NCBI GenBank assembly: GCA_964016885.1
Contig: OZ024756.1
Coordinates: forward strand, 16,120,001-16,184,000
DNA from: Eledone cirrhosa
Taxonomy: Eukaryota
DNA: 64,000 nt
Direction: 5' to 3'
The notes under the pieces are model-generated. The model made no database searches. It was not told the origin of the DNA and worked only from the letters and a program-made list of their open reading frames with translations. Each line of letters begins with the position of its first letter. Position 1 is the first letter of the stretch. Shown in pieces: positions 521-50,539 of this stretch. The translations under genes were made by a program, and so were the position numbers.

Positions 521-1240
521 TGAAATCAACTCCAGTGTGTTATTGGTAGTTTATTTTATTGATCCCATAAGAAGGAAAGGCAAAGCTCACCTCGCTGGGA
601 TTTGAACTCAGAATGTAAAGGGATGGAACTATATGCCTCAAAGCATGGTGTCTGAACTACGAATACTGCCAATTCACTGTTCTTGGTATAATAATAATGG
701 TTTCTGATTGAGGCACAAGGCCAGCAATTTTGAGGGAAGGGAAAGACGATTAAATCGACCTCAGTGCATTACTGGTACTTTATTTTTATTTTATCGACCC
801 CCCGTAAGGACGAAAGGCAAAGTCAACCTCAGCGGAATTTGAACTCACAACATAAAAGACCGTAATAATAATTTGTTTTTACATTTGGCACAAGGCCAGC
901 AATTATCCAGTACATTACTGGTACTTTATCTTATCGACCCCGTAAAGATGAAAGGCAAAGTTTCACCTCGACGGGATTTGAACTCAGACTGTAAAGGGAC
1001 GTAACTATGCTGGAAAGCATGGCGTCTGACCCTCTACCGATACTGCCAATTCACTGTAATAATAATTGTTTCTACTTTAGGCACAAGGCCAGCAATTATC
1101 CAGTGCATTACTGGTACTTTATTTTATCGACCCCGTAAGGATGAAAGGCAAAGTCAACCTCAGCGGGATTTGAACTCAGACCGTAAAGGGACGTAACTAT
1201 GCTGGAAAGCATGGCGTCTGACCCTCTACCGATACACCAT
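520..1240 (-). mobile_element. Four head-to-tail copies of a tRNA-derived SINE (family M)
   Basis: Repeated ggcacaaggccagcaatt...actggtactttattttatcgaccccgtaaggatgaaaggcaaagtcaacctc...atttgaactcag. This is the reverse complement of the full copy at 34262-34485. Confidence 0.85.
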
Positions 1241-1271
1241 AATAATAATGATAATAAAAGTAGTAACTTAC

Positions 1272-1526
1272 CTGTGATAAAGACACCTTTGAGGGCTTCC
1301 AGTAAGGAGCCATTAATATAATCTCGCCAGAATGCATCCAAATAAGTGAGTTCAGAGAATTTGATATCACATATGATAGAGCCAAGGTCCCGAGACTTAA
1401 GGATTGTGTTGGCCTGGGCAAACTTTTCAAACTGCCTCTCAAGTAACTCAGGTTTATTTGAGAAAACATTACCCTCTAGAACATTTTCATGATGGCAATA
1501 CTCAGCTCGTACCCTCAACCGAATAT
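1272..1526 (-). CDS. DEDD: DEDD coding exon 3 (conserved C-terminal domain)
   Basis: Acceptor tttcag|AT ATT CGG and donor ACA G|GTAAGT, 255 bp. DIRLRVRAEYCHHENVLEGNVFSNKPELLERQFEKFAQANTILKSRDLGSIICDIKFSELTYLDAFWRDYINGSLLEALKGVFIT is nearly identical to the vertebrate DEDD C-terminus. The final exon is not in the window. Confidence 0.95.
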
Positions 1527-2494
1527 CTGAAATAGAAGGGTTAATTAAGATGAAGTTTATTTTACTCTGATACAACTGAAATAAAATAAAAGAAAAGAAA
1601 AAGGTGGGAGTGGGAGGGGTAAAGGTCTTTAACTCCCAACAGAGTTGTACGGATGCTGTCCTGATACACTTTTACATCTGGAGGATCCCATCTCTCTCCA
1701 GGTTGGTACACAGCTGATTTCTTAGATAGTAGATAGATAGATATATTTCTTTTAGGTAGAGAGAGAGAGAGAGAAATATATATAATTGGATTGCTATTTT
1801 ATCGACCTTGAAAGATGAAATCCAAAGTTGACCCCAACAAGATTTGAATTCAGAACACAGTGAATTGGAACAAATACTGAGGTATTTTTTAATCTGTCAC
1901 CTGAAGGATTTTGCAAATTTGCTGCCTTACAACTGAAGTCCAATGAACAAATTATGAAGATAGCTAGGGTGTTGGACTTATGATCCTGAAGACATGTGGC
2001 CTAATAGGGTGTTGGACTTACAATCTTAAGGACATGGGTTTGATTCCTATATCAAGCAACACATTGTGTCCTTGAGCAAGATGTTTCATTTTACATTGTT
2101 TTTCATGACAGGATGTGGTAAAATACACGAGAAACCACTTATGAGATGCAAACTTGGCCAGCTAAAATAAGTTAGGTGTGAGCTGTAAATTTCATTTCAT
2201 TTTATCATCATCACTATCTTGCATCCACGTTTCCATGCTTTGGAGGGTTGGACGGGTCATCAGAGTCCAAGACTAGACGGTTATTTCATCGTGATTCAAG
2301 CTCTACCACTTTACAGAGTGTACTGGGTGCATTTTGGAATTCTTAGACCATCACTGAATACAAGAGGCACCTGAAGAAGGCTGTCCATCCATTGACCAGC
2401 ACTACACAACACCACTGTCTTTCCACTGACCATCAACACCACTGTCTACAAATGTTCCTTCTCAACAACTAAAAGGAGACAAAAGACAACTTAC

Positions 2495-8169: not shown

Positions 8170-8612
8170 GGGCCCAGAAGTATCTCCCATCTTTTCTTTG
8201 TTGATGACCTGAAGTTGTATGGGCCAAATATCAATGACATCAAGTTGCTACACATTTTATCTCCAGCCTGTATAGGTTGGCCACTGGTGTAGGAGGGAGT
8301 TTGTTGCTGCTGCCCTTAGGTTTCCCTCGTGTCTTGCTGTGGGCTCATCCGGGATCCTGGATAACAAAGTGTCGAGATGTTTCTTAAAGACATCCACCTC
8401 CACGTCATGCAAGTCTCTCAGATGCCTCGGCAGCCTGTTGAAGAGTTGAGGGCCCTTGAATCCCAGGCTATTGCAATACCTGCTCCTTATTCTAGATGTG
8501 GAAAACGGGACCTTTGGCACCACACAGTGACGTCCTGTTCGACGGTTGGTCCAGCTCCCAATGCTAAAGTTTGGTGCTAGTCCCTCCAAGATTTTCCACA
8601 TGTAGATCGCTG
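8170..8612 (-). mobile_element. CR1-group LINE 3' fragment (family 1)
   Basis: [12 protein letters not shown]...[21 protein letters not shown]...[19 protein letters not shown], a typical CR1/L2-group ORF2 C-terminus. Second copy at 44230-44635. Confidence 0.8.
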
Positions 8613-8613
8613 C

Positions 8614-8891
8614 ATATATATATATATATATATACATATATATACATATATACATATATGTATATATATATATATATATATATACATACACATATATACA
8701 TATATATATATATACATACATACACATATATACATACATACATATATATACATACATACATATATATATATACATACATACATATATATATACATACATA
8801 CATATATATACATACATACATATATATATACATACATACATATATATATATATACATACATATATATATATATACATACATATATATATAT

Positions 8892-21124: not shown

Positions 21125-21614
21125 GCGTTCATTAGATTCTTGTAACATTTTAAGCCATTTTTAATATCTGGCAATCCTATCTCTACACCTAAAAAAAAGG
21201 CCATTGTGTCTATTTATCTTACACATATACGTTTGTATGCAGAGTAATTATATACTTTTATATATATATATATATTATATACACCTATCTACATACATCC
21301 ACAGTGTCTTTATCCACGCATACATTGCAACTTTTCTTATACACAAACTATACACAGACTATTTTTTATACATACATATACGCATCTTTGTTTATATATA
21401 TACTATATTGTATAAAATTTAGTGATTATAATCATACATTCAGGATATATATATATATATGTACTATTTCTCTGGTACCGTGTCTTTATTGATGTAGTTT
21501 GTGGTAAATATTATCAACACTACTACCATCACCATTATCAGATTTTAATACCTTCATCTCTTCCCATACAACTACTACATAATAAAACTTATTATTTCTT
21601 GTGATAAAACTTAC

Positions 21615-22332
21615 CAGTTTTTCGTCGTCGCAATGTAACATAGGGGAGGAGGTCTTGGCGGCCCGTGATGGCAAGAGCATGCAAGATCTTACCGAAATTG
21701 GTACCATCAACCATACCTGCCCTTTCTAAGGCCATGAAATAATCGTAGCCATCGTTCACCTTCTTCATTAAAGACCTTTGGTCAATTTCGTCCGTCACTC
21801 GTCGTCTGGATGTGGAGGAAGAAGACGATGATGAAGAAGTAGAAGCTGAAGATGATGAGGAGTTTTGCGGATGAGATTTCAGGTTTTTAGCTTCCATCGC
21901 ATGATGAGTACGAACAGTTCTACCACCACGACTGTTATTACTTGTATTATTATTACTATTATTATTACTGCTGTTGTTGGTTGTCGAGGAGGAGGAGGCC
22001 GTGTTGTTGTTATAAACACCACCGCCACTATTATTAGCATCCGAGCGGCATTTCATGTCTTTACCTCCTCCAAAGTTCGAAGAGACGTCAGAGAGTCCAT
22101 TGTTTGTGAGACATACTACTTCTTTCGGGGTTAGTCTGTCTCCTACCAGATGGAACATTTCATTGAGAGAGAGCATCTGTTGACAGTTATCCAGTTTAGA
22201 GTGTCCAACAGCTTTTTCACCATCGAGCGCCATTTTCAGCCTGTCACCACAAAATATCTGCACCTTTTCAATGTACCTCCTCTTTGTTGAGCTGTCTTTC
22301 TGTATCTTCTTCGGCGACCCCACCCCAATCAT
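21615..22332 (-). CDS. DEDD: DEDD coding exon 1 (death effector domain with a low-complexity insertion)
   Basis: Translation MLSLNEMFHLVGDRLTPKEVVCL...VNDGYDYFMALERAGMVDGTNFGKILHALAITGRQDLLPYVTLRRRKT matches the vertebrate DEDD DED (LYSLHRMFDIVGTHLTHRDVRVL...RNGRDFLLALERQGRCDESNFRQVLQLLRIITRHDLLPYVTLKRRR) and keeps the RxDL motif. Donor G|GTAAGT at 21615/21614, phase 1. Start is either ATG 22332 or ATG 22233. Confidence 0.9.
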
Positions 22333-23034
22333 TGGAAGGACTCCATTGCTGTGGTATGAATCATTTGTAGCTTAATTTAATGCACATACGTAACTGGGTT
22401 TGTAATTCTTAGATCTAAATCTTAAAACACTATATTATTCTCACTAACTGATCCCGCCCCACTCACTAATTCCCCTACCACTTTCACGTATCGCTCCCTT
22501 GTGCGTTAGTTTATTTTATTCCTATTCGAATTTCTATATTCCAGAATAACGGTGGGAGGAATCAGAATAGCTGCTTATGATACGCTTATATTCTCGGAAA
22601 ACGATATAAAGCGAATAAGAGAATGAAGGAATGGGAAGTAAACGCAACCCAAATACTTGTTCGAGAATAGAGTCAGAATACGTTAAACCAGCATTCTTCA
22701 AGAAACAATTAAAAAAGTATAGGAAAATAGATTTAAACAAAATAATGATACTGTATTAATTATTGTCGTAAAGTATGGATGACCAAAGCGGCAAAAAGTA
22801 ATATATCTTATATACTAGCTAAATCACTGGAAAGACGAAAAGTAAAATAGGTTGAAGACATATTTGTAGTTAAATTATACCATAGTGATGTTGTTTTAAA
22901 TATGGTCTTTAGTTCTGTTTTAGTCATAAGGACTATGGCCATACTTGGGCACTTGTATGGGACTTGAAGATAATGTATAAAAACAAAATCTTCTATAGTA
23001 TTTTCATATATATAATGTTTATATAATGTGTGTG

Positions 23035-25599: not shown

Positions 25600-28500
25600 A
25601 GTAAGACAACCTCTCTAGTACTGGTGGCACGAATAAAAGAACCCAGTCCATGCTGTAAAGTGGTGCTGGTGTTAGGAAGGGCATCCAACCAGTATATATA
25701 CTACTGCCAAAAACTAAGAGAACAACAAATAAGAATTGCAACAACTGCGTCAACAGTAATAACACTAACCACATTAGGGATGCGCACGGTAGTGGGGTGG
25801 CTGGCAAGGATGATGGGTTAGGGGGAGTAGGCATTTTCCTGGCTGAGAGATGGATCACTAAGACAATAGAGGTCGTTCGAGTTAATAATAGAATAATTAA
25901 GCTTAGATTAGTTGTAGGCAGGAGACTACTGACAATCATCTCTGCCTATGCTCCCCAAGCAGGCCTAGGTAAAGAAGAGAAAGACTGCTTTTACGAGCAA
26001 CTTTTACAAACAGCCGCAATGACAGAGGACGGAGACATCGTTATGCTAGCAGGGGACTTCAATGGTCATGTTGGACAGCTCCAGGATGGTTACACTGGGA
26101 TACATGGTGGGCACGGTTACGGCTCAAGAAATGAAGAAAGAGTGAGACTTCTTGAATTTTGTGATGCAATTGCACTAACCATTTGCAACACTAACTTCCA
26201 AAAATCTGCCAACCACCTAATAACCTACAAATCAGGCGACCACATAAGCCAGATTGACTTCTTACTAGTTAGGCAGCAGGACAGGCAGATGGTGTCAAAT
26301 ACCAAGGCATACCCTGGGGAAGAATGTACCCCACAGCATAGGTTAGTCATTAGTGATATCTCAGTAAGCAAGAGACAGAATGAGACATACAGGAAGGTGT
26401 AGAGAAGAAAGGTCTGGAAGCTAAAAGACCTTTCACTAAAATACAAATTTAGGAAAGCCCTTCAAGATGTGTATGATGAAAAAGATGATTTAGAATCAAA
26501 TGACATAGATGATAACTGGAATTTCTTACGTGACAACTAACTGCAGGCTACTGATGAAACTTGTGGCTGGAGCAGAGCTCCAACCAAACAGAGAGTGACC
26601 TGGTGGTGGAACAACACAGTAGATAGGGCCATTAGAGACAAAAGACTAGCATGGAATGCTTGGAAGGGTGGGAGTAGAGAAGGATATACAGCCGCTAAGA
26701 GAGAAGCTAGACGTCAGGTGTACTTAGCACGCAAGGAGGCTGAGAATAGTAGGTTTGCCAATGTTCTGCGACAGGAAGATCAGAGATGTGCGGTGTTCCG
26801 CATTGCAAATCAGGATGTTGTTGGTGATAAATGTGTGCGGAATGATGCCAGTGTACTTAGTATCAGAAAAAGGAGGCCTGGAAATGTCATTATGAGAGAC
26901 TGATGAATGTGGAGAACGAATGGGAGAGAGAGAAATTACCCTCAGTAGATCCGACAGAGGGACCAGCTATTGAGATTGACGAATATAGGGTCAAAGAGGC
27001 GATTAAGGAAATGAAAAATGGTAAGGCCGCTGGACCGTCGGGGATAGATGCTAAGATGCTGAAGGCATCAGGGGACTTAGGCACTAAACTGGTTGCACAC
27101 ATCATCAATCAGGCTATATATGGCGGTGTCATACACAAAGACTGGTGCAGCAGTATTCTCATAAATTGCAACAAAGGTAAAGGGGATGCTCTGGAGAGGA
27201 GCAATTATAGGGGTATAAAACTGATTGATCAAGTTATGAAAGTGGCAGAAAGGATATTAGCGCAGCTAATTAGAGAAAGGGTCAAACTAGATGAGATGCA
27301 CTTTGGTTTTGTGCCAGGGAAAAGTACAACAGATGCCTTCTTCTTGGTGAGACAATTACAAGAGAGGTTCTTAGAGAAGAATAAGCCACTATACTTAGCT
27401 ATTGTTGACCTAGAGAAGGCCTTTGATAAGGTACCCTGATCTGTCATCCAGTGGTCCCTAAGGAAACTAGGTGTTGAAGAATGGCTTGTGAGGACAGTGC
27501 AAACTTTGTACAGAGGTGCTGTCAGTAAAGTCAGAGTAGGAATGGAGTTTAGTGAGGAATTCCAGATACAAGAAGGAGTATATCAAGGTTCGGTCCTCAG
27601 CCCACTCTTGTTCATTATAGTACTCCAAGCCATAACAGAGGAGTTTAACACTGGCTGTCCATGGGAACTTCTCTATGCTGATGATCTGGTTCTTATAGCA
27701 GAATCAGTAGAGGAACTAGAGAATAAATTCTGGCGATGGAAACAGCAGTTGGAAGCACGAGGACTGAGAGTGAACCTAGCTAAGACAAAAGTGTTGATGA
27801 GTAGAAAAGAGGAGAAAACTCTGATTCCGTCAGGGAAATGGCCATGTTCGATATGCAGAAAAGGAACTAGCATAAATTCTATAAAATGTACACAATGCAG
27901 ATCTTGGGTACATAAGAGATGTAGTGGGATACCAGGCAAACTAACAGGTAGGGAGAAATATGTATGCAGTAGATGTACGGGGAAATTTGACAGTAGAAGT
28001 CGCATTGATAGACACATTTTTGGAATGCAGGTGGTTGCTATAGAAGTGATTGCTAGCTTCCAGTATCTAGGTGATCAGATTAGCATGGGAGGGGTGTGTT
28101 CTGAGGCCATAGTATCTAGAATAAGGACAGGTTGGAAGAAGTTTAGGGAGCTGCTTCCTCTGCTGACGAAGAAGGGTTTCTCCGTGCTTACGAAAGGCCG
28201 GTTATATGATGCCTGTGTGAGAAGCGCGATGCTGCATGGTAGTGAGACATGGGCAACAACTGCAGAGGATATGCGACGGCTGGAGAAACATGAGGTAAAC
28301 ATGCTCCGCTGGATGTGCAATGTCAATGTGCGTGAACGACCGAGCATGAATGTGTTGAGAGAGAAACTGTGTCTGAGAGGGATAGATTGTAGTGTGCAGG
28401 AGAGGAGACTGCAGTGGTATGGACATGTGATGCACATAGTGGATGACCGATGGGTGAAGAAGTGCCAAGAAATGCCAGTTGAAGGAAGAGGTAGTAGAGG

Positions 28501-28675
28501 TAGACCACGAAAAACATGGGCGGAGGTGGTGCGAGCAGACCTCAGATCGCTGAAGCTCACGGTGGAGATGACGAAGGACCGTGACAAGTGGAGAGATGCT
28601 GTGCTGATTAGGACTCGTCCCACCCTTGCAAGCAGGGAAAAGCGGACGTAAAGTGATGCTGATGACGATGATGAT
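25600..28675 (+). mobile_element. Near full-length RTE-clade LINE (subfamily A), pseudogenised: APE endonuclease, RT, PHD-like finger
   Basis: EN motifs GGVGIF, SAYAPQ, GDFNGHVG, SQIDF, QHRLV. RT motifs NYRGIKL, DLEKAFD, QGSVLSPLLF, YADD. C-terminal WYGHV...GRPRKTW and a (TGA)n tail. Stops at about 26400, 26538 and 27437, plus a frameshift near 26870. Confidence 0.95.
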
Positions 28676-29129
28676 ATATTTATCATTCATTCAGCCCCAT
28701 TGTTCTCTGTGGAGCATAGTCTATTGACGAGATTTTGATATGATTTATTTTGAGAACAATACCTTAACATCAACATGAGTGGCCAGTTACAGCCGGTTTG
28801 AACAGAAATCGGTGAGAAAATTCTGGCCGCATACAGCCGGTTTAAATGCTAAAGCATGAAACTGGGTGACATATGAAGTCTACCATCCAAGCTGGTCACA
28901 CTCGGATTGGAACTTAGAACACAAAGCGCCTGAACCAAAAAAAAAAAAAGCCTTGAGGCATTCTCACCAGAAATTCTAACAATTTTGTCCATCTGTAAAA
29001 AGAAGGAAGGCTAAGTGGAAAAGTGGACGTCTGTTAATGTGAACTCTGTACAATGGTCACAACCACAAGGATATGGTCCGAATGTGAAAGAGCCGAACTC
29101 TCACTGTCACTACCTCCATCTCCCTCGCC

Positions 29130-43290: not shown

Positions 43291-43871
43291 GTATATTTGT
43301 ATATGTATATAGATATATATGTATATATATTATATATATATATGTATATAGATATATATGTATATATATTATATATATATATGTATATATATTATATATA
43401 TAAATATATATTATATATGTATATATATTATATATATATATGTATATATATTATATATATATATATATATTATATATGTATATATATTATATATATATAT
43501 ATTATATATGTATATATATATATATATGTATATGTATATATATATGTATATATGGGATTTAGTGATTTAATCCTGGTATGTATATAAGCATTTCTAACAT
43601 TAATTTTTACCTAATTATGTATGGTTGATCGTATATTTAATTAATTTCCACGTGCTGTTGAAATGTTGGGTAAATATTCTATAGTGGTTGTGCGTGAAGA
43701 GGCCGCTGTGGCGTATTTATCTACTGTTTCTTCATAGGTGCCTTTTATTCTTATAGCCTGGTCTAATTGATTTTTTGTGTGGTTAATTATGCTGATTGGG
43801 AATAGAGATGATGTATATATATTATCAAATAATTCTCTGGACATGTTTTACTCTAGTATATATGTATATAT

Positions 43872-44210
43872 ATAAATGTAATCTGAGTTTTTCGAATATT
43901 AATAACATTTGATTCGTTTGCAATTATGCAAACAAGCCTCATTTTTAAAGCCATGTCAGTAGAATGAACCCTTCATTCTTGCTCTTGTGTTGGCATGTAA
44001 ACAGAACTGCAGACACTAATGTTTCTGGGTATCACCCTTCATCAGTACAGCTCACTGTTCACCTGCCAAACTGTCAGAGCTAGTGAAAATATATGCTATT
44101 TTCTAAAATATACATTGACTGATTGGCCTGATTTGCATATTAGCGGACTGGCTGATCAGTCAGATCTGCATATTAGCAGATCCACTAATCAGCCAGATTT
44201 GCATATCAGC
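43872..44210 (-). mobile_element. Hammerhead-bearing repeat unit (Penelope pLTR / retrozyme-like), copy 1
   Basis: Near identical to 49624-49960; contains the hammerhead at 44004-44053. Confidence 0.75.
44004..44053 (-). ncRNA. Type I hammerhead ribozyme motif (class 2)
   Basis: GAGCUGUA-CUGAUGA-A GGG ugaua CCC A-GAA-ACA uuag UGU-C/UGCAGUUC. 8-bp stem I, 3-bp stem III, GUC cleavage at 44012/44011. The 10.1-11.1 position is A-A, which is non-canonical. Confidence 0.8.
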
Positions 44211-44229
44211 AAACTGATACCTGTTGCAG

Positions 44230-44635
44230 CCATCCGACTGAGGCCATGTTGGGGCACCGCCCTTGTTGCTACACATTTTATCTCCAGCCTGTATTGGTTG
44301 GCCACAGGTGCAAGAGGGAGTTTGTTGTTGCTGCCCTTAGGTTTCCCTCGTGCCTTGCTCTGGGCTCATCTGGGATCCTGAATAGCAAGGTGTCGAGATG
44401 TTTCTTGAAAACAACATCCACGTCCACACCATGCAGATCTCTCAAATCCCTTGGCAGCTTGTTGAAGAGTTGAGGGCCTTTGAACCTCAGGCTATTGCAA
44501 TGTGGAAGACGGGACCTTTGGCACCACGCAGTGACGTCCTGTTCAGGAGTTGGTCTAGCTCCCAATGCGAAAGTTTGGTGCTAGTCCCTCCAGGATTTTC
44601 CATATGTATATCACTGCGTATCTCTCCCGTCTTCG
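44230..44635 (-). mobile_element. CR1-group LINE 3' fragment (family 1)
   Basis: Homologous to 8170-8612: LRRRERYAVIYIWKILEGL...[11 protein letters not shown]. Confidence 0.85.
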
Positions 44636-44716
44636 TAAAATGATGATGATGATGATGATATCAATATATATATATATCAATATATATATACATAAATATA
44701 TATATCGATATATATA

Positions 44717-45407
44717 TGTAACGGAATACTCCTATGTTTTACCGGCGAAGATTTGAAACCGAATGTGAGTTTTCTCGCCTCTAGAACCACCTATTGTTGG
44801 GAGGTTCCCACTATTGTCTTGTCAAGAGACCAGGATGATAAACGTACATACCACTTGACCTTTGACTCCAGCTTCCTGAGAGACGAAATCCACATGGCTG
44901 ATCATAAATACACATCCTTCTAGTTATAGCATTATTATAAATACAAGGATATGAGAAACCCAGCAGCCAGACTGAAGCAAGCAGTCTGTATTAAGGTTAA
45001 CAATGTAGCAGACCTTTCACTCTATCTCTCTCTCCTGGCCTCACTGGCTCTCACCCTCTCAGCCTCGGACTACGCCAACAGACAAGAGACCACGAAGCAG
45101 CAGTCCATGAGACTAATAATGTATTCTAAGAATAGACACACACACATAGTAAGTTTCATATTGTTTACATCTATGCTTCATCTATTCTTCCGTCTCCCTG
45201 TCATATTGTATCGTCATATTGATAATGCATACACGCTAGCTCGAAGTAGCTAGCCAGCAAATAACGTAGTGATAAATCCTGTCATAAATATTATTACTCG
45301 ATGTTCAAAGTGAACATTGTTATTGTAAAATAAACATTGTTAACATCACAATTCTGGCATTATTCTTTTTATCATTCATCCACAAAAGAATACATTTATC
45401 CACTACA
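44717..45407 (+). mobile_element. Putative solo LTR (~690 bp)
   Basis: Starts TGTAACG and ends CTACA, flanked by TATA/TATA. TATAAATA at about 44935 and AATAAA at about 45329. Confidence 0.45.
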
Positions 45408-45424
45408 TATATATATATGTATAT

Positions 45425-45580
45425 ATATATATTTGTTAAAATAAAAGATTAAAGTTTAAGCAAAGAATCGCTGCTTTCACCCTTAATGGGATCTTCTGAA
45501 ACTTTCAAAAGATCCCATTAAGGGTGAAAGCAGCGATTCTTTGCTTAAACTTTAATCTGTTATTTTAATAAATATATATA
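45425..45580. repeat. Near-perfect palindrome centred at 45502
   Basis: ...aagcaaagaatcgctgctttcacccttaatgggatcttctgaaa c tttcaaaagatcccattaagggtgaaagcagcgattctttgctt... Confidence 0.95.
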
Positions 45581-45668
45581 TATATATATTTATTTATATA
45601 TATATTATTCTTATCAAGCCCTCTTCAGATTTTAGCCTTCACATTTTTTATTATTACTATATATATAT

Positions 45669-45882
45669 ATATAATAACTAGAGATTGATTAACATATAAA
45701 TAAACATGAATAATCACAGGAGATAATTTTTACAAGTGTGTAACCACATATAGCTAGGTAGGTAACTAAATAAAGTTGACCAGAACTTCAAAAATAGCTA
45801 TGTGTGGTTACACACTTGTATAAAAATTATCTCCTGTGATTATTCATGTTTATTTATATGTTAATCAATCTATAGTTATTAT
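45669..45882. repeat. Fold-back with ~87-bp arms and a 38-bp spacer
   Basis: ataataactagagattgattaacatataaataaacatgaataatcacaggagataat... and its reverse complement ending tagttattat. Confidence 0.95.
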
Positions 45883-46341
45883 AAAATGCTCGGACCTACT
45901 CGCTAGAATCTTAGAGCTTATTTTGCGGGTGATATGGCGCATGTCTTTCTGGCATGACACTCATAATTTTGATTTAGATTAAATTCATTTGATTTATCTT
46001 AATTTTGGATATAGATATATATATATATATATATATAGATTGTATGTAAAAGGTAAACAGAAATAACAACACAATCGGGACAGTATATGGAAGGAATATA
46101 TCAGTTTAACGCTTGAAATAGCAGGAAGAGCGTCTTAACGTTTTGGATGTATTTATATATAAAAAACAAAATTAGGATTTGATTTCTCACTCTAGCATAG
46201 CAGATTACATAAATGTAAGTATGGGTTATATCGAATATTAATAATAATAATATTTGATTTGTTTACAAGCAAACAGCCTTACTAAGCTATGCCATGTTTT
46301 GGCAGCTATTGCCATCTGTTTGTTCAACAGTAGCATCGAGG

Positions 46342-46387
46342 AACAATTTACATGTTTCTGGGTCATTACCCTTCATCAGGACTGTTT
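46342..46387 (-). ncRNA. Minimal type I hammerhead (class 2, palindromic stem III)
   Basis: AAACAGUC-CUGAUGA-A GGG uaauga CCC A-GAA-ACAUGU-A/AAUUGUU. One mismatch at 1.1-2.1. Confidence 0.65.
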
Positions 46388-46545
46388 AACTCTCTGACAC
46401 TCGAAAATATATAGTATTTTCTTCAGTATACCTCGGCTGATTAACCTCATTAAAATTGCTTGGTATGCAAATGAGGCTGCTCAGCCAATGTTTACATTAG
46501 AAAATACTATATATTTTCAACAGTTTGATCAAGCGTCATAGGCGT

Positions 46546-46592
46546 AAACTGTCCTGATGAAGGCTAATGACCCAGAAACATGTTGATTGTTT
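46546..46592 (+). ncRNA. Minimal type I hammerhead (class 2, palindromic stem III)
   Basis: AAACUGUC-CUGAUGA-A GGC uaauga CCC A-GAA-ACAUGU-U/GAUUGUUU. Slightly decayed. Confidence 0.6.
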
Positions 46593-46648
46593 GCAAATGA
46601 AATAAATATTATTAATAGTATTCGATATAACCCATACTTACATTTATT

Positions 46649-46685
<37 letters not shown>

Positions 46686-46693
46686 GTGTGTAA

Positions 46694-46724
<31 letters not shown>

Positions 46725-46769
46725 GTGACAAAACATAAGTCAATTGCATGAACTCATAATCCTCTATTT

Positions 46770-46825
46770 ACTGCTATATATATTTCGATGATAGCCATTG
46801 AATGGCTATGATCTCATCAGGCAGT
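46770..46825 (-). ncRNA. Type I hammerhead ribozyme motif (class 1)
   Basis: ACUGC-CUGAUGA-[GAU C AUAGCCAU uca AUGGCUAU C AUC]-GAA-AUAUAUAU-A/GCAGU. Cleavage at 46775/46774. Confidence 0.85.
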
Positions 46826-47249
46826 TAGTCAGTTCTTAGATATGCCAGCTCTGTGTTTATGGTGTTGATGGTATCAGAGCCTTGGGATCAATATATTATA
46901 CATATATATATATTATTTACCATCACCGTTATCACATTACAGCGTTATCACATTACACTTTTCCTTGCTTGAAAGGGTGGGACATATATATATATATATA
47001 TTATATCATATACACACATTAATGAGTGTGTATATATGCATAAAGAGGCAGAACATACACAGTGACAGAAAAAAAATAGTAAAAAGGTCATGTGACTATT
47101 AGTATCGGCTAAAACTGAAGTGGACCAGTTAGTGGCTAAAATCAAAATAAACCAGAAATCAATAATATTTGACCCAATACCATAGTGAAATAGCTTGGAC
47201 CGTAGGGAATGGTAAGGGGTGCCAACTTGGAACAGTATATATGTATGTA

Positions 47250-47296
<47 letters not shown>

Positions 47297-47567
47297 ATGT
47301 ATATATGTATGTGTGTATATATGTATGTGTGTGTATATATATATATGTATGTATATGTGTATATATATATATATGTATATATGTATATATGTATGTATGT
47401 ATATATGTATATATACATATATATGTATGTATATATGTATATATATATATATGTATGTATATATGTATATATATATATATGTATGTATATATGTATATAT
47501 ATATATATGTATGTATATATGTATATATATATATATGTTTATATATATATGTATGTATATATGTATG

Positions 47568-47598
<31 letters not shown>

Positions 47599-47615
47599 GT
47601 ATGTATATATGTATG

Positions 47616-47660
<45 letters not shown>

Positions 47661-47918
47661 GTATATATATATATATGTATGTATATATGTATATATATAT
47701 ATACATATATGTAGAGGAATGAAGGAAAGAGCATAAAGGATAAAATTAAAATAACAACACAAGAGAGAGTTACCTTGGGAGAGATTTAATTGTCCCTATA
47801 TATTTTGGATTTACATCCATCAACTGGGGTTTTTTCCGGGGTGGGGGAAAGGTTGTCTGTCGGAAAGGTGCGAAACGCGTCCTCCGCTGTAGTTTTGAAT
47901 ATATATATACATATATAT

Positions 47919-47965
<47 letters not shown>

Positions 47966-48452
47966 TAGAACTATATACATATATATCAATATACATATAT
48001 ATACATAAATATATATGTGTATATATATATATGTATATACATATATATATATATACGTATCTATCTATCTAAGGCGGGTAAAATTCCCGAGATCCATGGA
48101 CGAGTTCTCTCCAGCGGTCTCTGTCCTTCATTATCGCTGCCATAGACACTGGTCTGTTGGAGATGCAGGATATATATATATACATATATATATATATGTA
48201 TATATATATGTATAAGAGATAACAAGTTATCGTTATAGGTAATCCAGTTAGAGGTTGTGTACTCTGTATTGTGGATAGTTTTAACGTACGGCGTTGTTTG
48301 ACTCAACAAGAGGTTTCCTTAGTTAGGTGGCGAGTTTTCAGGAATTCCTATGCAGGTTAATCTTGGAGTAATAATAGTGAAACAGTGAAGAATAACATGG
48401 TCAACAGTACAAAAAGGTTTTTATTTACAGTATTAACAATTATTACATTGAT

Positions 48453-49615
48453 TAAGATTGCTAATCACTCAAAGTTGTGTCACTCAATCTTAAATACAGT
48501 GTATGCCTAATGAAATCATCGGAATAACTGACAAAATTACACTCGATATTTGTATTTATACTACGGAGAATTCAAATAACAACATCAATAATAAGGAAAG
48601 AAAAAGAAAAAGAAAAAGAAAAAGAAAAAGAAAAAGAAAAAGAAAAAATAATAAAGAAGTTAGAATGAAGATAATAAAAAAAAAAACTAGAATAGAAAGC
48701 ACAACGACGCTGGCCAATAAAATCTGGCAGCTTAAGGATACAAACCAAGAATACTGGATTAGCTGGTCAAAATTATCGGGAGCAAAGGCCTACAGAAATG
48801 GAATGTCCCACTGCGGACTTTGCAATATGGAGCTGTTCCATATTTTAAAGTATGACAAAATGCTGCTTAACACCAATATAGAACGCTCAATTTTCTGTAG
48901 GCACAAAGCAGCTACTAAATTCGCAAATTTCAAACCAACATGATTCGATCCAACAATCCCATAATTCAAGCTGAACCACCCAGAGTCTATTATAATAGCT
49001 ACATACCAACTCACTATTATTAACTGTCAACAAACCAACTAATCACTAAAACAACATCATAAACCTTCTAACCTTTCTTTTACTTTCACTTTCTTTCATT
49101 CTCTCTCCTTAAACCTATTTCACCTCTTCCCTTGTATCCTATCCTATATCTCTTAACCTCTAACCTAACTTCTAATTTATTAATTTATCTTTTATAAGTT
49201 ATTTATCATTTTATTCTTTCATCCTACTCTAACCATCTGTGATTTAACCAATACATATGTATATATTTAATATTTATTTTCATATTAATAATATTCCTAC
49301 CCTCATCACATCTTTATACTTACGCACCACTATAACTTCAACCAACTCCACCACTATTTTCAACAATCATATTATGTTCATATATATATATATTTTTTTT
49401 TTTCACAGTATATATATATTTTTATTTATATATTTTTTATTATCTTCATTCTAACTTCTTTATTTTTATTTCTTTATTATTGATGTTGTTATTTGAATTC
49501 TCTCTAGTATAAATACAAATATCGAGTGTAATTTTGTCAGTTATTCTGGTGATTTGATTAGGCATACACTGTATTTATGATTGAGTGGCACAACTTCGAG
49601 TGATTAGCAATCTTT
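48453..49615 (+). mobile_element. Penelope-like element 3' remnant (GIY-YIG C-terminus) bracketed by ~150-bp inverted repeats
   Basis: 48690-48943 encodes TTLANKIWQLKD...ISWSKLSGAKAYRNGMSHCGLCNMELFHIL...LLN...CRH*, a typical PLE endonuclease tail. 48453-48600 is the reverse complement of 49470-49615. Confidence 0.8.
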
Positions 49616-49623
49616 AGACATCC

Positions 49624-50180
49624 ATGTAATCTGAGTTTTTCGAAAATTAATAATGATATTCGATTCGTTTGCAATTATGCAAACAAGCCTCATTTTTAAA
49701 GCCATGTCAGTAGAATGAACCCTTCATTCTTGCTCTTGTGTTGGCATGTAAACAGAACTGCAGACACTAATGTTTCTGGGTGTCACCTTTCATCAGTACA
49801 GCTCACTGTTCACCTGCCAAACTGTCAGAGCTAGTGAAAATATATGCTATTTTCTAAAATATACATTGACTGATTGGCCTGATTTGCATATTAGCAGACT
49901 GGCTGATTAGTCAGATCTGAATATTAGCAGATCCACTGATCAGCCAGATTTGCATATCAGAGACAGGCCAGTCAGTTTCCTGTATATGAGTGATTAATGG
50001 CTGGCTTTGCTATATTCAAATTTTAAAAAAATAATAAATTATTGCTCTACATAGCTGAATACAATAAATGTAATCTGAGTTTACGAATATTAATAATAAC
50101 ATTCGATTCGTTTGCAATTATGCAAACAAGCCTCATTTTACAGTAGAATGAGGCCCTCATTCTTCTTCTTATGTTGGCAT
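49624..50180 (-). mobile_element. Hammerhead-bearing repeat unit, copy 2, plus a partial tandem copy (period 444 bp)
   Basis: atgtaatctgagttt occurs at 49624 and 50068. Confidence 0.75.
49755..49804 (-). ncRNA. Type I hammerhead ribozyme motif (class 2)
   Basis: Same as 44004-44053 except stem II reads A AGG ugaca CCC A. Confidence 0.7.
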
Positions 50181-50539
50181 TTTTTTTTTGTATATATACA
50201 TATTTATATATACATATAAATACATATTTATATATACATATATATACATATTTATATATAAATATATATACATATTTATATGTGCATATATATACATATT
50301 TATATATACATATATATATATACATACATATTTATATATACATATATATTCATATTTATATATACATATATATACATATTTATATGTGCATATATATACA
50401 TATTTATATATACATATATATTCATATTTATATATACATATATATACATATTTATATGTGCATATATATACATATTTATATATACATATATATATAAACA
50501 TATATATACACATATATATATATACATATATATATATAC

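What the first reader, a model, noticed from the sequence alone, without database searches (positions are those of the whole stretch)
43872..50180. 444-bp retrozyme/pLTR-like unit: hammerhead with A-A at 10.1-11.1 plus promoter motifs
Seen: 43872-44210 and 49624-49960 are near-identical, and a partial third copy at 50068 gives a 444-bp tandem period. Each full copy has a GUC-site hammerhead on the minus strand whose stem II opens with A-A instead of the usual R-Y pair. The same A-A occurs in the diverged 46342 and 46546 motifs, so it is a family trait rather than decay. Upstream of the ribozyme are repeated ATTTGCAT octamers (about 44131 and 44197) and ATTGG (CCAAT). No ORF. Known: non-LTR retrozymes and Penelope pseudo-LTRs are few-hundred-bp tandem units cut to monomers by type I hammerheads. 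Inference: a non-autonomous, possibly self-transcribed ribozyme element that yields ~444-nt linear or circular RNAs and is mobilised by a PLE such as the adjacent GIY-YIG remnant.
Basis: partly seen in the sequence, partly recalled or inferred. Interest (0 to 1): 0.8.

Follow-up and report, generated by a model that had tools for sequence, protein, structure and literature searches.

The report
High-copy Penelope-type hammerhead ribozyme repeat
This is one family of a very abundant ~440-base mobile repeat carrying a hammerhead ribozyme motif, likely copied by Penelope-type retrotransposon enzymes; its odd A-A pair also occurs in other natural hammerheads, so it is a new member of a known kind.

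Summary
Two 96%-identical copies, a partial third and two diverged copies are present; four carry a type I hammerhead core reading CUGAUGA-A-[stem II]-A-GAAA (4 matches, 0 expected). Public reads show a very high-copy family (order 10^4, rough) in several organisms, whose 3' ends often abut (TA)n. The head-to-tail junction recurs (one consensus-like contig in organism B), so ~440 nt is a real unit length. The striking extras fall away. A-A at the base of stem II is not unique: 20 of 61 phage-contig matches form full hammerheads with it, it appears in a published rotifer Penelope-like alignment, and U-U there is common in Hydra-clade elements. The CCAAT box is a rare variant shared by these two copies; the octamers are units of a 33-bp internal repeat. 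The third copy has no ribozyme, so this locus cannot release a monomer. The neighbouring Hydra-type GIY-YIG remnant is on the opposite strand and far rarer: an incidental neighbour. Best reading: a non-autonomous Penelope-derived, retrozyme-type element with a predicted dimer-acting hammerhead. Cleavage, RNA, circles and promoter activity are untested.

The parts
43872..44209 (-). Copy c1 of the element, lacking the 5' ~107 nt; 3' end runs into a short (TA)n and a degenerate tail ending in TAGAG near 43851
44004..44053 (-). Type I hammerhead of c1: 8-bp stem I, core 44045-44039, A44038 opposite A44026, 4-bp stem II, quasi-palindromic helix III, GUC site with predicted cut at 44012/44011
49624..50067 (-). 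Copy c2, one full 444-bp unit (5' spacer region, 33-bp repeats, hammerhead, 3' hairpins)
49755..49804 (-). Hammerhead of c2 (A49789 opposite A49777); private change at 49788 breaks the first stem II G-C pair; predicted cut at 49763/49762
   Evidence: (99.7% of X1 depth has the pairing letter at 49788)
49869..49964 (-). 33-bp internal tandem repeat, 2.9 copies, holding the octamers (49882, 49948; 44131 and 44197 in c1); repeat number varies among copies
   Evidence: skips of 32-35 and 65 nt in reads
50040..50180 (-). Partial copy c3 (3' 113 nt, no hammerhead, 82% identical) plus the ~25-nt 3' tail also seen after c1 and d1; this is the head-to-tail junction with c2
46190..46451 (-). Diverged copy d1 with the same A-A core (core starts at 46379), palindromic helix III, GUA site
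46464..46650 (+). Diverged copy d2, inverted and back-to-back with d1; same A-A core (starts at 46554), C.C mismatch in stem II, one octamer at 46465
48442..49630 (+). Neighbour, not part of the unit: 5'-truncated Hydra-type Penelope-like remnant (C-terminal half of the GIY-YIG endonuclease at 48665-48940) with an inverted 212-bp copy at 48442-48647; overlaps the 3' end of c2 by 7 nt
44265..44640 (-). Neighbour: 3' fragment of a LINE-like element close to the 5' side of c1 (another copy near 8244-8714)
   Evidence: the LINE label is recalled

Best explanation
A non-coding ~440-nt repeat carrying a type I hammerhead motif, present in very many copies, that is likely a non-autonomous Penelope-like (retrozyme-type) element copied in trans by the reverse transcriptase and GIY-YIG endonuclease of a (TA)n-targeting Penelope-like family. 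Shown: copies, core, stems, high abundance, (TA)n at many 3' ends, a recurring head-to-tail junction, no ORF. Inferred: a minority of loci are head-to-tail tandems and serve as sources. A single hammerhead is predicted to fold mostly inactive, because the helix III segment pairs with the CUGAUG core. Two copies would pair their quasi-palindromic helix III segments (10 bp), form a double hammerhead and cut out a unit-length RNA, linear or circular. That RNA or the uncut precursor would be reverse-transcribed at a nicked target, giving dispersed monomers and 1.x-mers such as c1 and c2+c3. The core is best read as a canonical G-C pair flanked by one extra A on each side, a relaxed closing position known from other hammerheads. 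The partner is most likely a Hydra-clade element (not identified). This locus, with one hammerhead in its tandem and that one mutated, is probably a dead-end product.
For: Abundance: X1 word depth 176,338 at 49788 against 8.5 at the unique flank 50152-50185; parts held in 12 runs of 8 studies. 3' ends: 846 X13 reads continue into (TA)n at 49624; a tail after the 3' end is shared by c1, c3 and d1. Craig 2021 (PMC8557442) describes such 30-40-bp tails, partial tandems and inverted copies for Penelope-like elements and lists (TA)n preference for 26 of 27 Hydra-clade entries. Junction: X4 contig 15 spans 49902-50069 at depth 8.79, carries family-majority letters, and comes from a run in which the locus flanks have depth 0. 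Structure: 91% of cells paired, 3 compensatory and 3 one-sided changes in stem I, against 25-44% for slid controls. Helix III stays self-complementary at two lengths (10-nt duplex -8.8, 6-nt -4.6 kcal/mol). Monomer MFE -33.1 against -26.9 for the active core. A-A is tolerated elsewhere: 20 of 61 viral-contig matches form full type I folds, null mean 0.075. Precedent: a U-U variant cleaves and gives circles in axolotl (PMC7229834 section 15); animal retrozymes as non-autonomous PLE derivatives with monomer share 0 to 1 (bioRxiv 10.64898/2026.07.22.740005).
Against: No cleavage, transcript or circle was observed. No array with two hammerheads was seen in the window or in the listed contig pieces (short pieces, 24 of about 11,000 shown). 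The covariation rests on 4 related sequences; shuffles reach the score in 18 of 500 and the compensatory count in 57 of 500. The A-A positions 49777 and 49789 are not among the 40 variant rows shown, but 69 rows were hidden. The autonomous partner was not found: none of five family motifs occurs in the Craig 2021 consensus files, and the sixth hit only an unrelated sequence. c3 is only 82% like c2, which does not fit a single rolling copy event. In the 2026 preprint 8 of 9 predicted Xenopus dimers did not cleave in vitro. Depth is not a calibrated copy number and is lowered where c2 has private changes.
Confidence: 0.65

Rival explanations
1. The element is a SINE-like passenger of a Penelope-like family, and the hammerhead is a conserved structure that seldom or never cleaves in vivo; the RNA is copied uncut and no unit-length or circular RNA accumulates.
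For: The monomer is predicted inactive by 6.2 kcal/mol. Depth shows no cliff at the cut site (343k, 250k, 191k across it). 3 of 4 window copies have a broken pair. PLE minimal hammerheads cleave poorly in vitro (PMC4209133); 8 of 9 Xenopus dimers were inactive.
Against: The core is invariant across ~70%-identical subfamilies, with compensatory stem I changes and a preserved palindrome. A-A cores occur in strong-stemmed phage hammerheads with GUC sites.
Confidence: 0.15
2. The unit is only the 3' end (pseudo-LTR) of an autonomous Penelope-like element, and the copies are 5'-truncated insertions.
For: The hammerhead lies ~170 nt from the 3' end, as in Hydra-clade elements; d1 and d2 form an inverted pair typical of PLE insertions; X6 loose ends continue beyond 49998.
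Against: The head-to-tail junction closes after ~440 nt with no ORF, here and in an organism B contig. The adjacent endonuclease remnant is antisense and far rarer. The ORF-like stretch after c1 has no homologues.
Confidence: 0.12
3. One reading: the unit transcribes itself from an octamer/CCAAT promoter, this locus yields 444-nt monomers or circles, and the adjacent GIY-YIG family mobilises it.
For: Two octamers per unit (0 of 5000 shuffles); no listed variant falls inside them; d2 keeps one octamer.
Against: CCAAT is absent from the family majority (49875). The octamers are copies of one 33-bp repeat. c3 has no hammerhead. The remnant is unlinked in reads.
Confidence: 0.08

Closest known systems
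Non-LTR retrozymes of animals (Cervera and de la Pena 2020, PMC7229834; Li, Clavereau and Pollet 2026, bioRxiv 10.64898/2026.07.22.740005)
   Same: Non-coding unit of a few hundred nt, low GC, type I hammerhead, head-to-tail junction, self-paired RNA, high copy number; axolotl HHR_Amex2 also has a mismatch (U-U) at the base of stem II and works better as a dimer.
   Different: No tandem with two hammerheads was seen; unit slightly longer than the 170-400 nt reported for invertebrates; A-A rather than U-U; internal 33-bp octamer repeats; RNA untested.
Pseudo-LTR hammerheads of Hydra-clade Penelope-like elements (Craig et al. 2021, PMC8557442, Files S1 and S2)
   Same: Hammerhead 100-200 nt from the 3' end, an extra base on both sides of stem II (U-U in 14 of 25), palindromic helix III, (TA)n targets, tails, inverted copies.
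   Different: No ORF in the unit; A-A is not in that table; the listed Hydra-1_oBim ribozyme has a different sequence.
Hammerhead of Athena-AvM, Adineta vaga (PMC4209133 Fig. S3, Table S1)
   Same: A after CUGAUGA and A after a G-C-opened stem II, with a palindromic helix III (my reading of the extracted text, in which the GAAA column is missing).
   Different: Belongs to an autonomous element; longer stem II, 3-bp stem I.
Phage type I hammerheads with an A-A core (IMG/VR loci L004, L012, L015, L021, L037, L039, L049, L055, L060)
   Same: Same core with A opposite A above G-C pairs; mostly GUC sites.
   Different: Long stable stem III (monomer type), unrelated flanks; some are paired around small ORFs.

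Membership tests
Type I hammerhead ribozyme | CUGANGA, GAAA and UH core joined by three helices, stem I open | tested here: met
   Rfam models did not detect it
Type I hammerhead ribozyme | Watson-Crick pair at 10.1-11.1 | tested here: not met
   A opposite A in 4 of 4, or G-C with two extra As; exceptions are known; 27 of 52 distinct viral-contig folds of the scanned pattern have a pair other than G-C there
Type I hammerhead ribozyme | Self-cleavage 3' of NUH | not testable with these tools
   needs an in vitro assay or RNA ends
Non-LTR retrozyme | Non-coding unit of a few hundred nt with a type I hammerhead | tested here: met
Non-LTR retrozyme | Head-to-tail tandem of units | tested here: met
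   c2+c3; X4 contig spanning 49902-50069; share of tandem loci not measured reliably
Non-LTR retrozyme | At least two consecutive units each with a complete hammerhead (the 'active' criterion of Li et al.) | tested here: inconclusive
   not met at this locus (c3 lacks it); elsewhere not resolvable with short pieces and no assembly
Non-LTR retrozyme | Monomeric linear and circular RNA in tissues | not testable with these tools
   only DNA or unlabelled runs were available to lay
Autonomous Penelope-like element | RT and GIY-YIG ORF on the same strand within the element | tested here: not met
   no ORF in the unit; neighbouring endonuclease antisense and unlinked
Penelope-like insertion (any) | Fixed 3' end with optional tail, partial tandems, inverted copies, microsatellite targets | tested here: met
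   features as described in PMC8557442
Penelope-like insertion (any) | Graded 5' truncation | tested here: inconclusive
   depth falls 5'-ward in X1 but is confounded by private changes of c2 and by read length in X13
Hydra-clade PLE (neighbouring remnant only) | C-terminal GIY-YIG without CCHH, downstream of RT | tested here: met
   585 relatives at E<=0.001; the longer ones among the 150 listed carry RT/thumb motifs upstream and end after the endonuclease; pattern matches Hydra consensus sequences by eye

The most novel reading that the evidence does not exclude
An undescribed, very high-copy cephalopod-type retrozyme that carries its own array of octamer sites and a self-locking hammerhead (off as a monomer, on as a dimer), producing abundant ~440-nt circular RNA and scattering octamer modules across the genome.
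Probability: 0.2. Interest if true: 0.6.

Novelty: new member of a known kind. Interest (0 to 1): 0.33.

Why it matters
It adds a very abundant family to the retrozyme/Penelope continuum and is missed by Rfam and by descriptors that demand a 10.1-11.1 pair. It offers a clean test of whether Penelope-type hammerheads cleave as dimers, since monomer and dimer folds are predicted to differ. The A-A core recurs in an animal repeat, a rotifer element and phages, so hammerhead searches should allow it. None of this is a new class of system.

Tried and rejected
No whole genome was held, so arrays and PLE linkage could not be mapped. Rfam: 0 matches at gathering score; 99 matches at E<=10, none a hammerhead. 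The repeat finder was swamped by (TA)n. No RNA holder listed. The read starts at 49745/49748 in X13 are taken as RAD-seq cut sites, not ribozyme cuts (DNA library). The ORF-like stretch 43644-43847 after c1 was tested as a PLE ORF start: nothing in Pfam, tblastn with 150 proteins, ESM Atlas or the homologue search. A search for longer relatives of the endonuclease piece found none; the HMMER scan did. Metagenome scan: 2 matches, neither with stems I and III. I first read the low X1 depth at 50008-50031 (746) as 'tandem under 0.5%' and withdrew that: c2 has many private changes there and an X4 contig spans the junction. Runs X5-X12 hold small shares; of these only X6 was laid. Earlier findings: nothing in 3 look-ups. 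Literature searches for G10.1/C11.1 mismatch, 'A-A mismatch' and A10.1/A11.1 gave nothing relevant. The RNA Biology paper on dimeric PLE hammerheads was not held; the supplement of PMC7229834 and file 1 of PMC4209133 could not be read and may hold further A-A examples.
Full report
Setting. The window is animal DNA rich in (TA)n and retroelement debris; exons with a weak death-effector-domain match lie at 21595-22371. The repeats look octopus-like, which is recalled and shown by no call. No genome was held.

Observation. c1 (43876-44209) and c2 (49624-49960) match at 325 of 337 columns. c3 (50064-50180) is 82% identical, begins 444 bp from c2 and ends before the ribozyme. Diverged copies d1 (minus) and d2 (plus) lie back to back at 46190-46650 at about 70% identity. 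The core pattern occurs 4 times with 0.00 expected. All four have A after CUGAUGA and A before GAAA. There is no ORF over 52 codons in the unit. Rfam does not see the motif.

Ribozyme anatomy. Stem I has 8 pairs, stem II 4 and monomer stem III 3. On the 4 copies 91.4% of cells pair, with 3 compensatory and 3 one-sided changes in stem I; slid controls give 25-44%, but shuffles reach the covariation score in 18 of 500 and the compensatory count in 57 of 500, so this is modest support. Helix III is self-complementary in both subfamilies, 10 nt in c1 and c2 (-8.8 kcal/mol as a duplex) and 6 nt in d1 and d2 (-4.6), the signature of dimer-acting hammerheads described in PMC4209133 (parts 1-2 of 4 of the text read). 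In c1 the same segment pairs with the CUGAUG core, making the monomer MFE (-33.1) 6.2 kcal/mol more stable than the active fold (-26.9). c2 carries a private A.C mismatch at 49788 (99.7% of X1 depth has the pairing letter); d1 and d2 each have broken pairs.

Is A-A special? No. The core can be read as the canonical G-C pair with an extra base on each side; the extra 5' base is conserved in PLE hammerheads. U-U at this position is natural (PMC3088659, passages), occurs in 14 of 25 Hydra-type elements, with U-C and C-A also listed (PMC8557442 File S2), and axolotl HHR_Amex2 with U-U cleaves and gives circles (PMC7229834 section 15). The Adineta vaga Athena-AvM motif in PMC4209133 Fig. S3 reads A...A around a G-C-opened stem (the GAAA column is lost in the extracted text, so this is my reading). 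In viral contigs 20 of 61 matches to an A-A pattern (16 distinct) form complete type I folds, 18 with GUC, against a null mean of 0.075. In a capped scan open at both positions (120 loci, 121 matches), distinct full folds were G-C 25, U-C 20, A-A 3, C-A 2, A-C 1 and G-U 1. A-A is a recurring minority variant. I found no kinetic test of it.

The family. Twelve runs from 8 studies hold part of the stretch, most at small shares; 4 of 15 listed runs were laid on 49480-50185. In X1 the unit has word depth of about 1e5-4.5e5 against 8.5 at the unique flank, which suggests on the order of 10^4 copies (rough; the tool warns that depth is no copy number). At the 3' end 846 X13 reads pass into (TA)n, many others into the tail at 50040-50063, and 787 leave the reference at 50044 with low agreement (0.54). 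The tail is also recognisable after c1 and d1. Tails, partial tandems, inverted copies and (TA)n preference are PLE hallmarks (PMC8557442, passages and supplement parts 1, 2, 52). The head-to-tail junction recurs: X4 contig 15 spans 49902-50069 with family-majority letters at depth 8.79 (unit 26-100, locus flanks 0), and 60-86 X13 reads cover 50026-50035. X1 depth there is low (bin mean 746) but is depressed by c2's private changes, so the tandem share is unresolved and probably a minority. No piece with two hammerheads was listed. c1 and c2 share two letters that are rare in the family (49866, about 1% of X1 depth; 49875, about 6%), so they are likely local sister copies.

Promoter motifs. 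The octamers are units of a 33-bp internal repeat (2.9 copies) whose number varies in reads. They are enriched within the unit but not in the window. The CCAAT box depends on 49875, where the family majority has the other letter in all 4 runs. A promoter is not excluded, but this evidence for it is weak.

The neighbour. 48665-48940 encodes the C-terminal half of a GIY-YIG endonuclease; 585 relatives at E<=0.001, the longer ones with RT/thumb motifs upstream, resembling Hydra-clade consensus sequences by eye. It is on the opposite strand, has its own inverted copy (48442-48647), overlaps c2's 3' end by 7 nt, has X1 depth 200-5,800 and is absent from X4 and X6. It is an incidental neighbour, although a Hydra-type family remains the likeliest mobiliser by target preference and ribozyme style (inference). 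The segment between c1 and c2 is a mosaic of unrelated repeats.

Mechanism. Shown: structure, conservation, abundance, ends, junction, no ORF. Inferred: tandem source loci are transcribed; two hammerheads pair through helix III and release a unit-length RNA that may circularise; a PLE RT/endonuclease copies it, or the uncut precursor, into (TA)n-rich sites. This locus cannot release a monomer from c2+c3. Against: no RNA data, no two-hammerhead array seen, c3 too diverged from c2 for one copying event, and 8 of 9 predicted dimers failed in vitro in the 2026 preprint (parts 1-3 of 5 read).

Novelty. It works like a non-LTR retrozyme or PLE pseudo-LTR; the 'active retrozyme' criterion is not met here and is unresolved genome-wide. 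I found no description of this family: the search for hammerhead+Penelope+octopus gave 5 papers, none describing it by listing; PMC7229834 has no 'octopus'; the 2026 O. vulgaris repeat paper PMC13282606 has no 'hammerhead' or 'ribozyme' (passages); family motifs are absent from the Craig consensus files. Repbase and Dfam could not be checked. Verdict: real feature, new member of a known kind, interest 0.33.

Noticed in passing
window 39354 (+) and 46820 (-): A second, unrelated family of minimal type I hammerheads with long stem II and a TATATATA palindromic helix III; the two copies align over the ribozyme only.
   Followed up: partly
window 7676 (-) and 58944 (-): Further hammerhead-like cores preceded by the same TATTTTAT stem; 7676 passes a relaxed fold test.
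   Followed up: no
window 44717-45407: Segment beginning TGTAAC and ending CTACA inside (TA)n, resembling a solo LTR (label recalled).
   Followed up: no
window 45404-45600 and 45670-45883: Two long palindromic, MITE-like hairpins (92% and 83% self-complementary).
   Followed up: no
window 21595-22371, 2472-2792, 1111-1671 (-): Probable exons of a death-effector-domain (DEDD-like) gene; only the first was scanned, PF01335 E 0.0009, below cut-off.
   Followed up: partly
window 26861-28648 (+) and 29060-31457 (-): Long RT-like ORFs of an RTE-type LINE and a broken RT/YR-like element, labels recalled.
   Followed up: no
L039/L046/L047 and L055: Phage contigs with two or three A-A-core hammerheads 295-612 bp apart around small ORFs.
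   Followed up: partly
L062-L172 (viral contigs): U-C at 10.1-11.1 is nearly as common as G-C among full folds of the scanned pattern (20 against 25 distinct).
   Followed up: no
window 49624-49630: The 3' end of c2 shares 7 nt with the Hydra-type remnant's 3' UTR, possibly microhomology priming at insertion.
   Followed up: no
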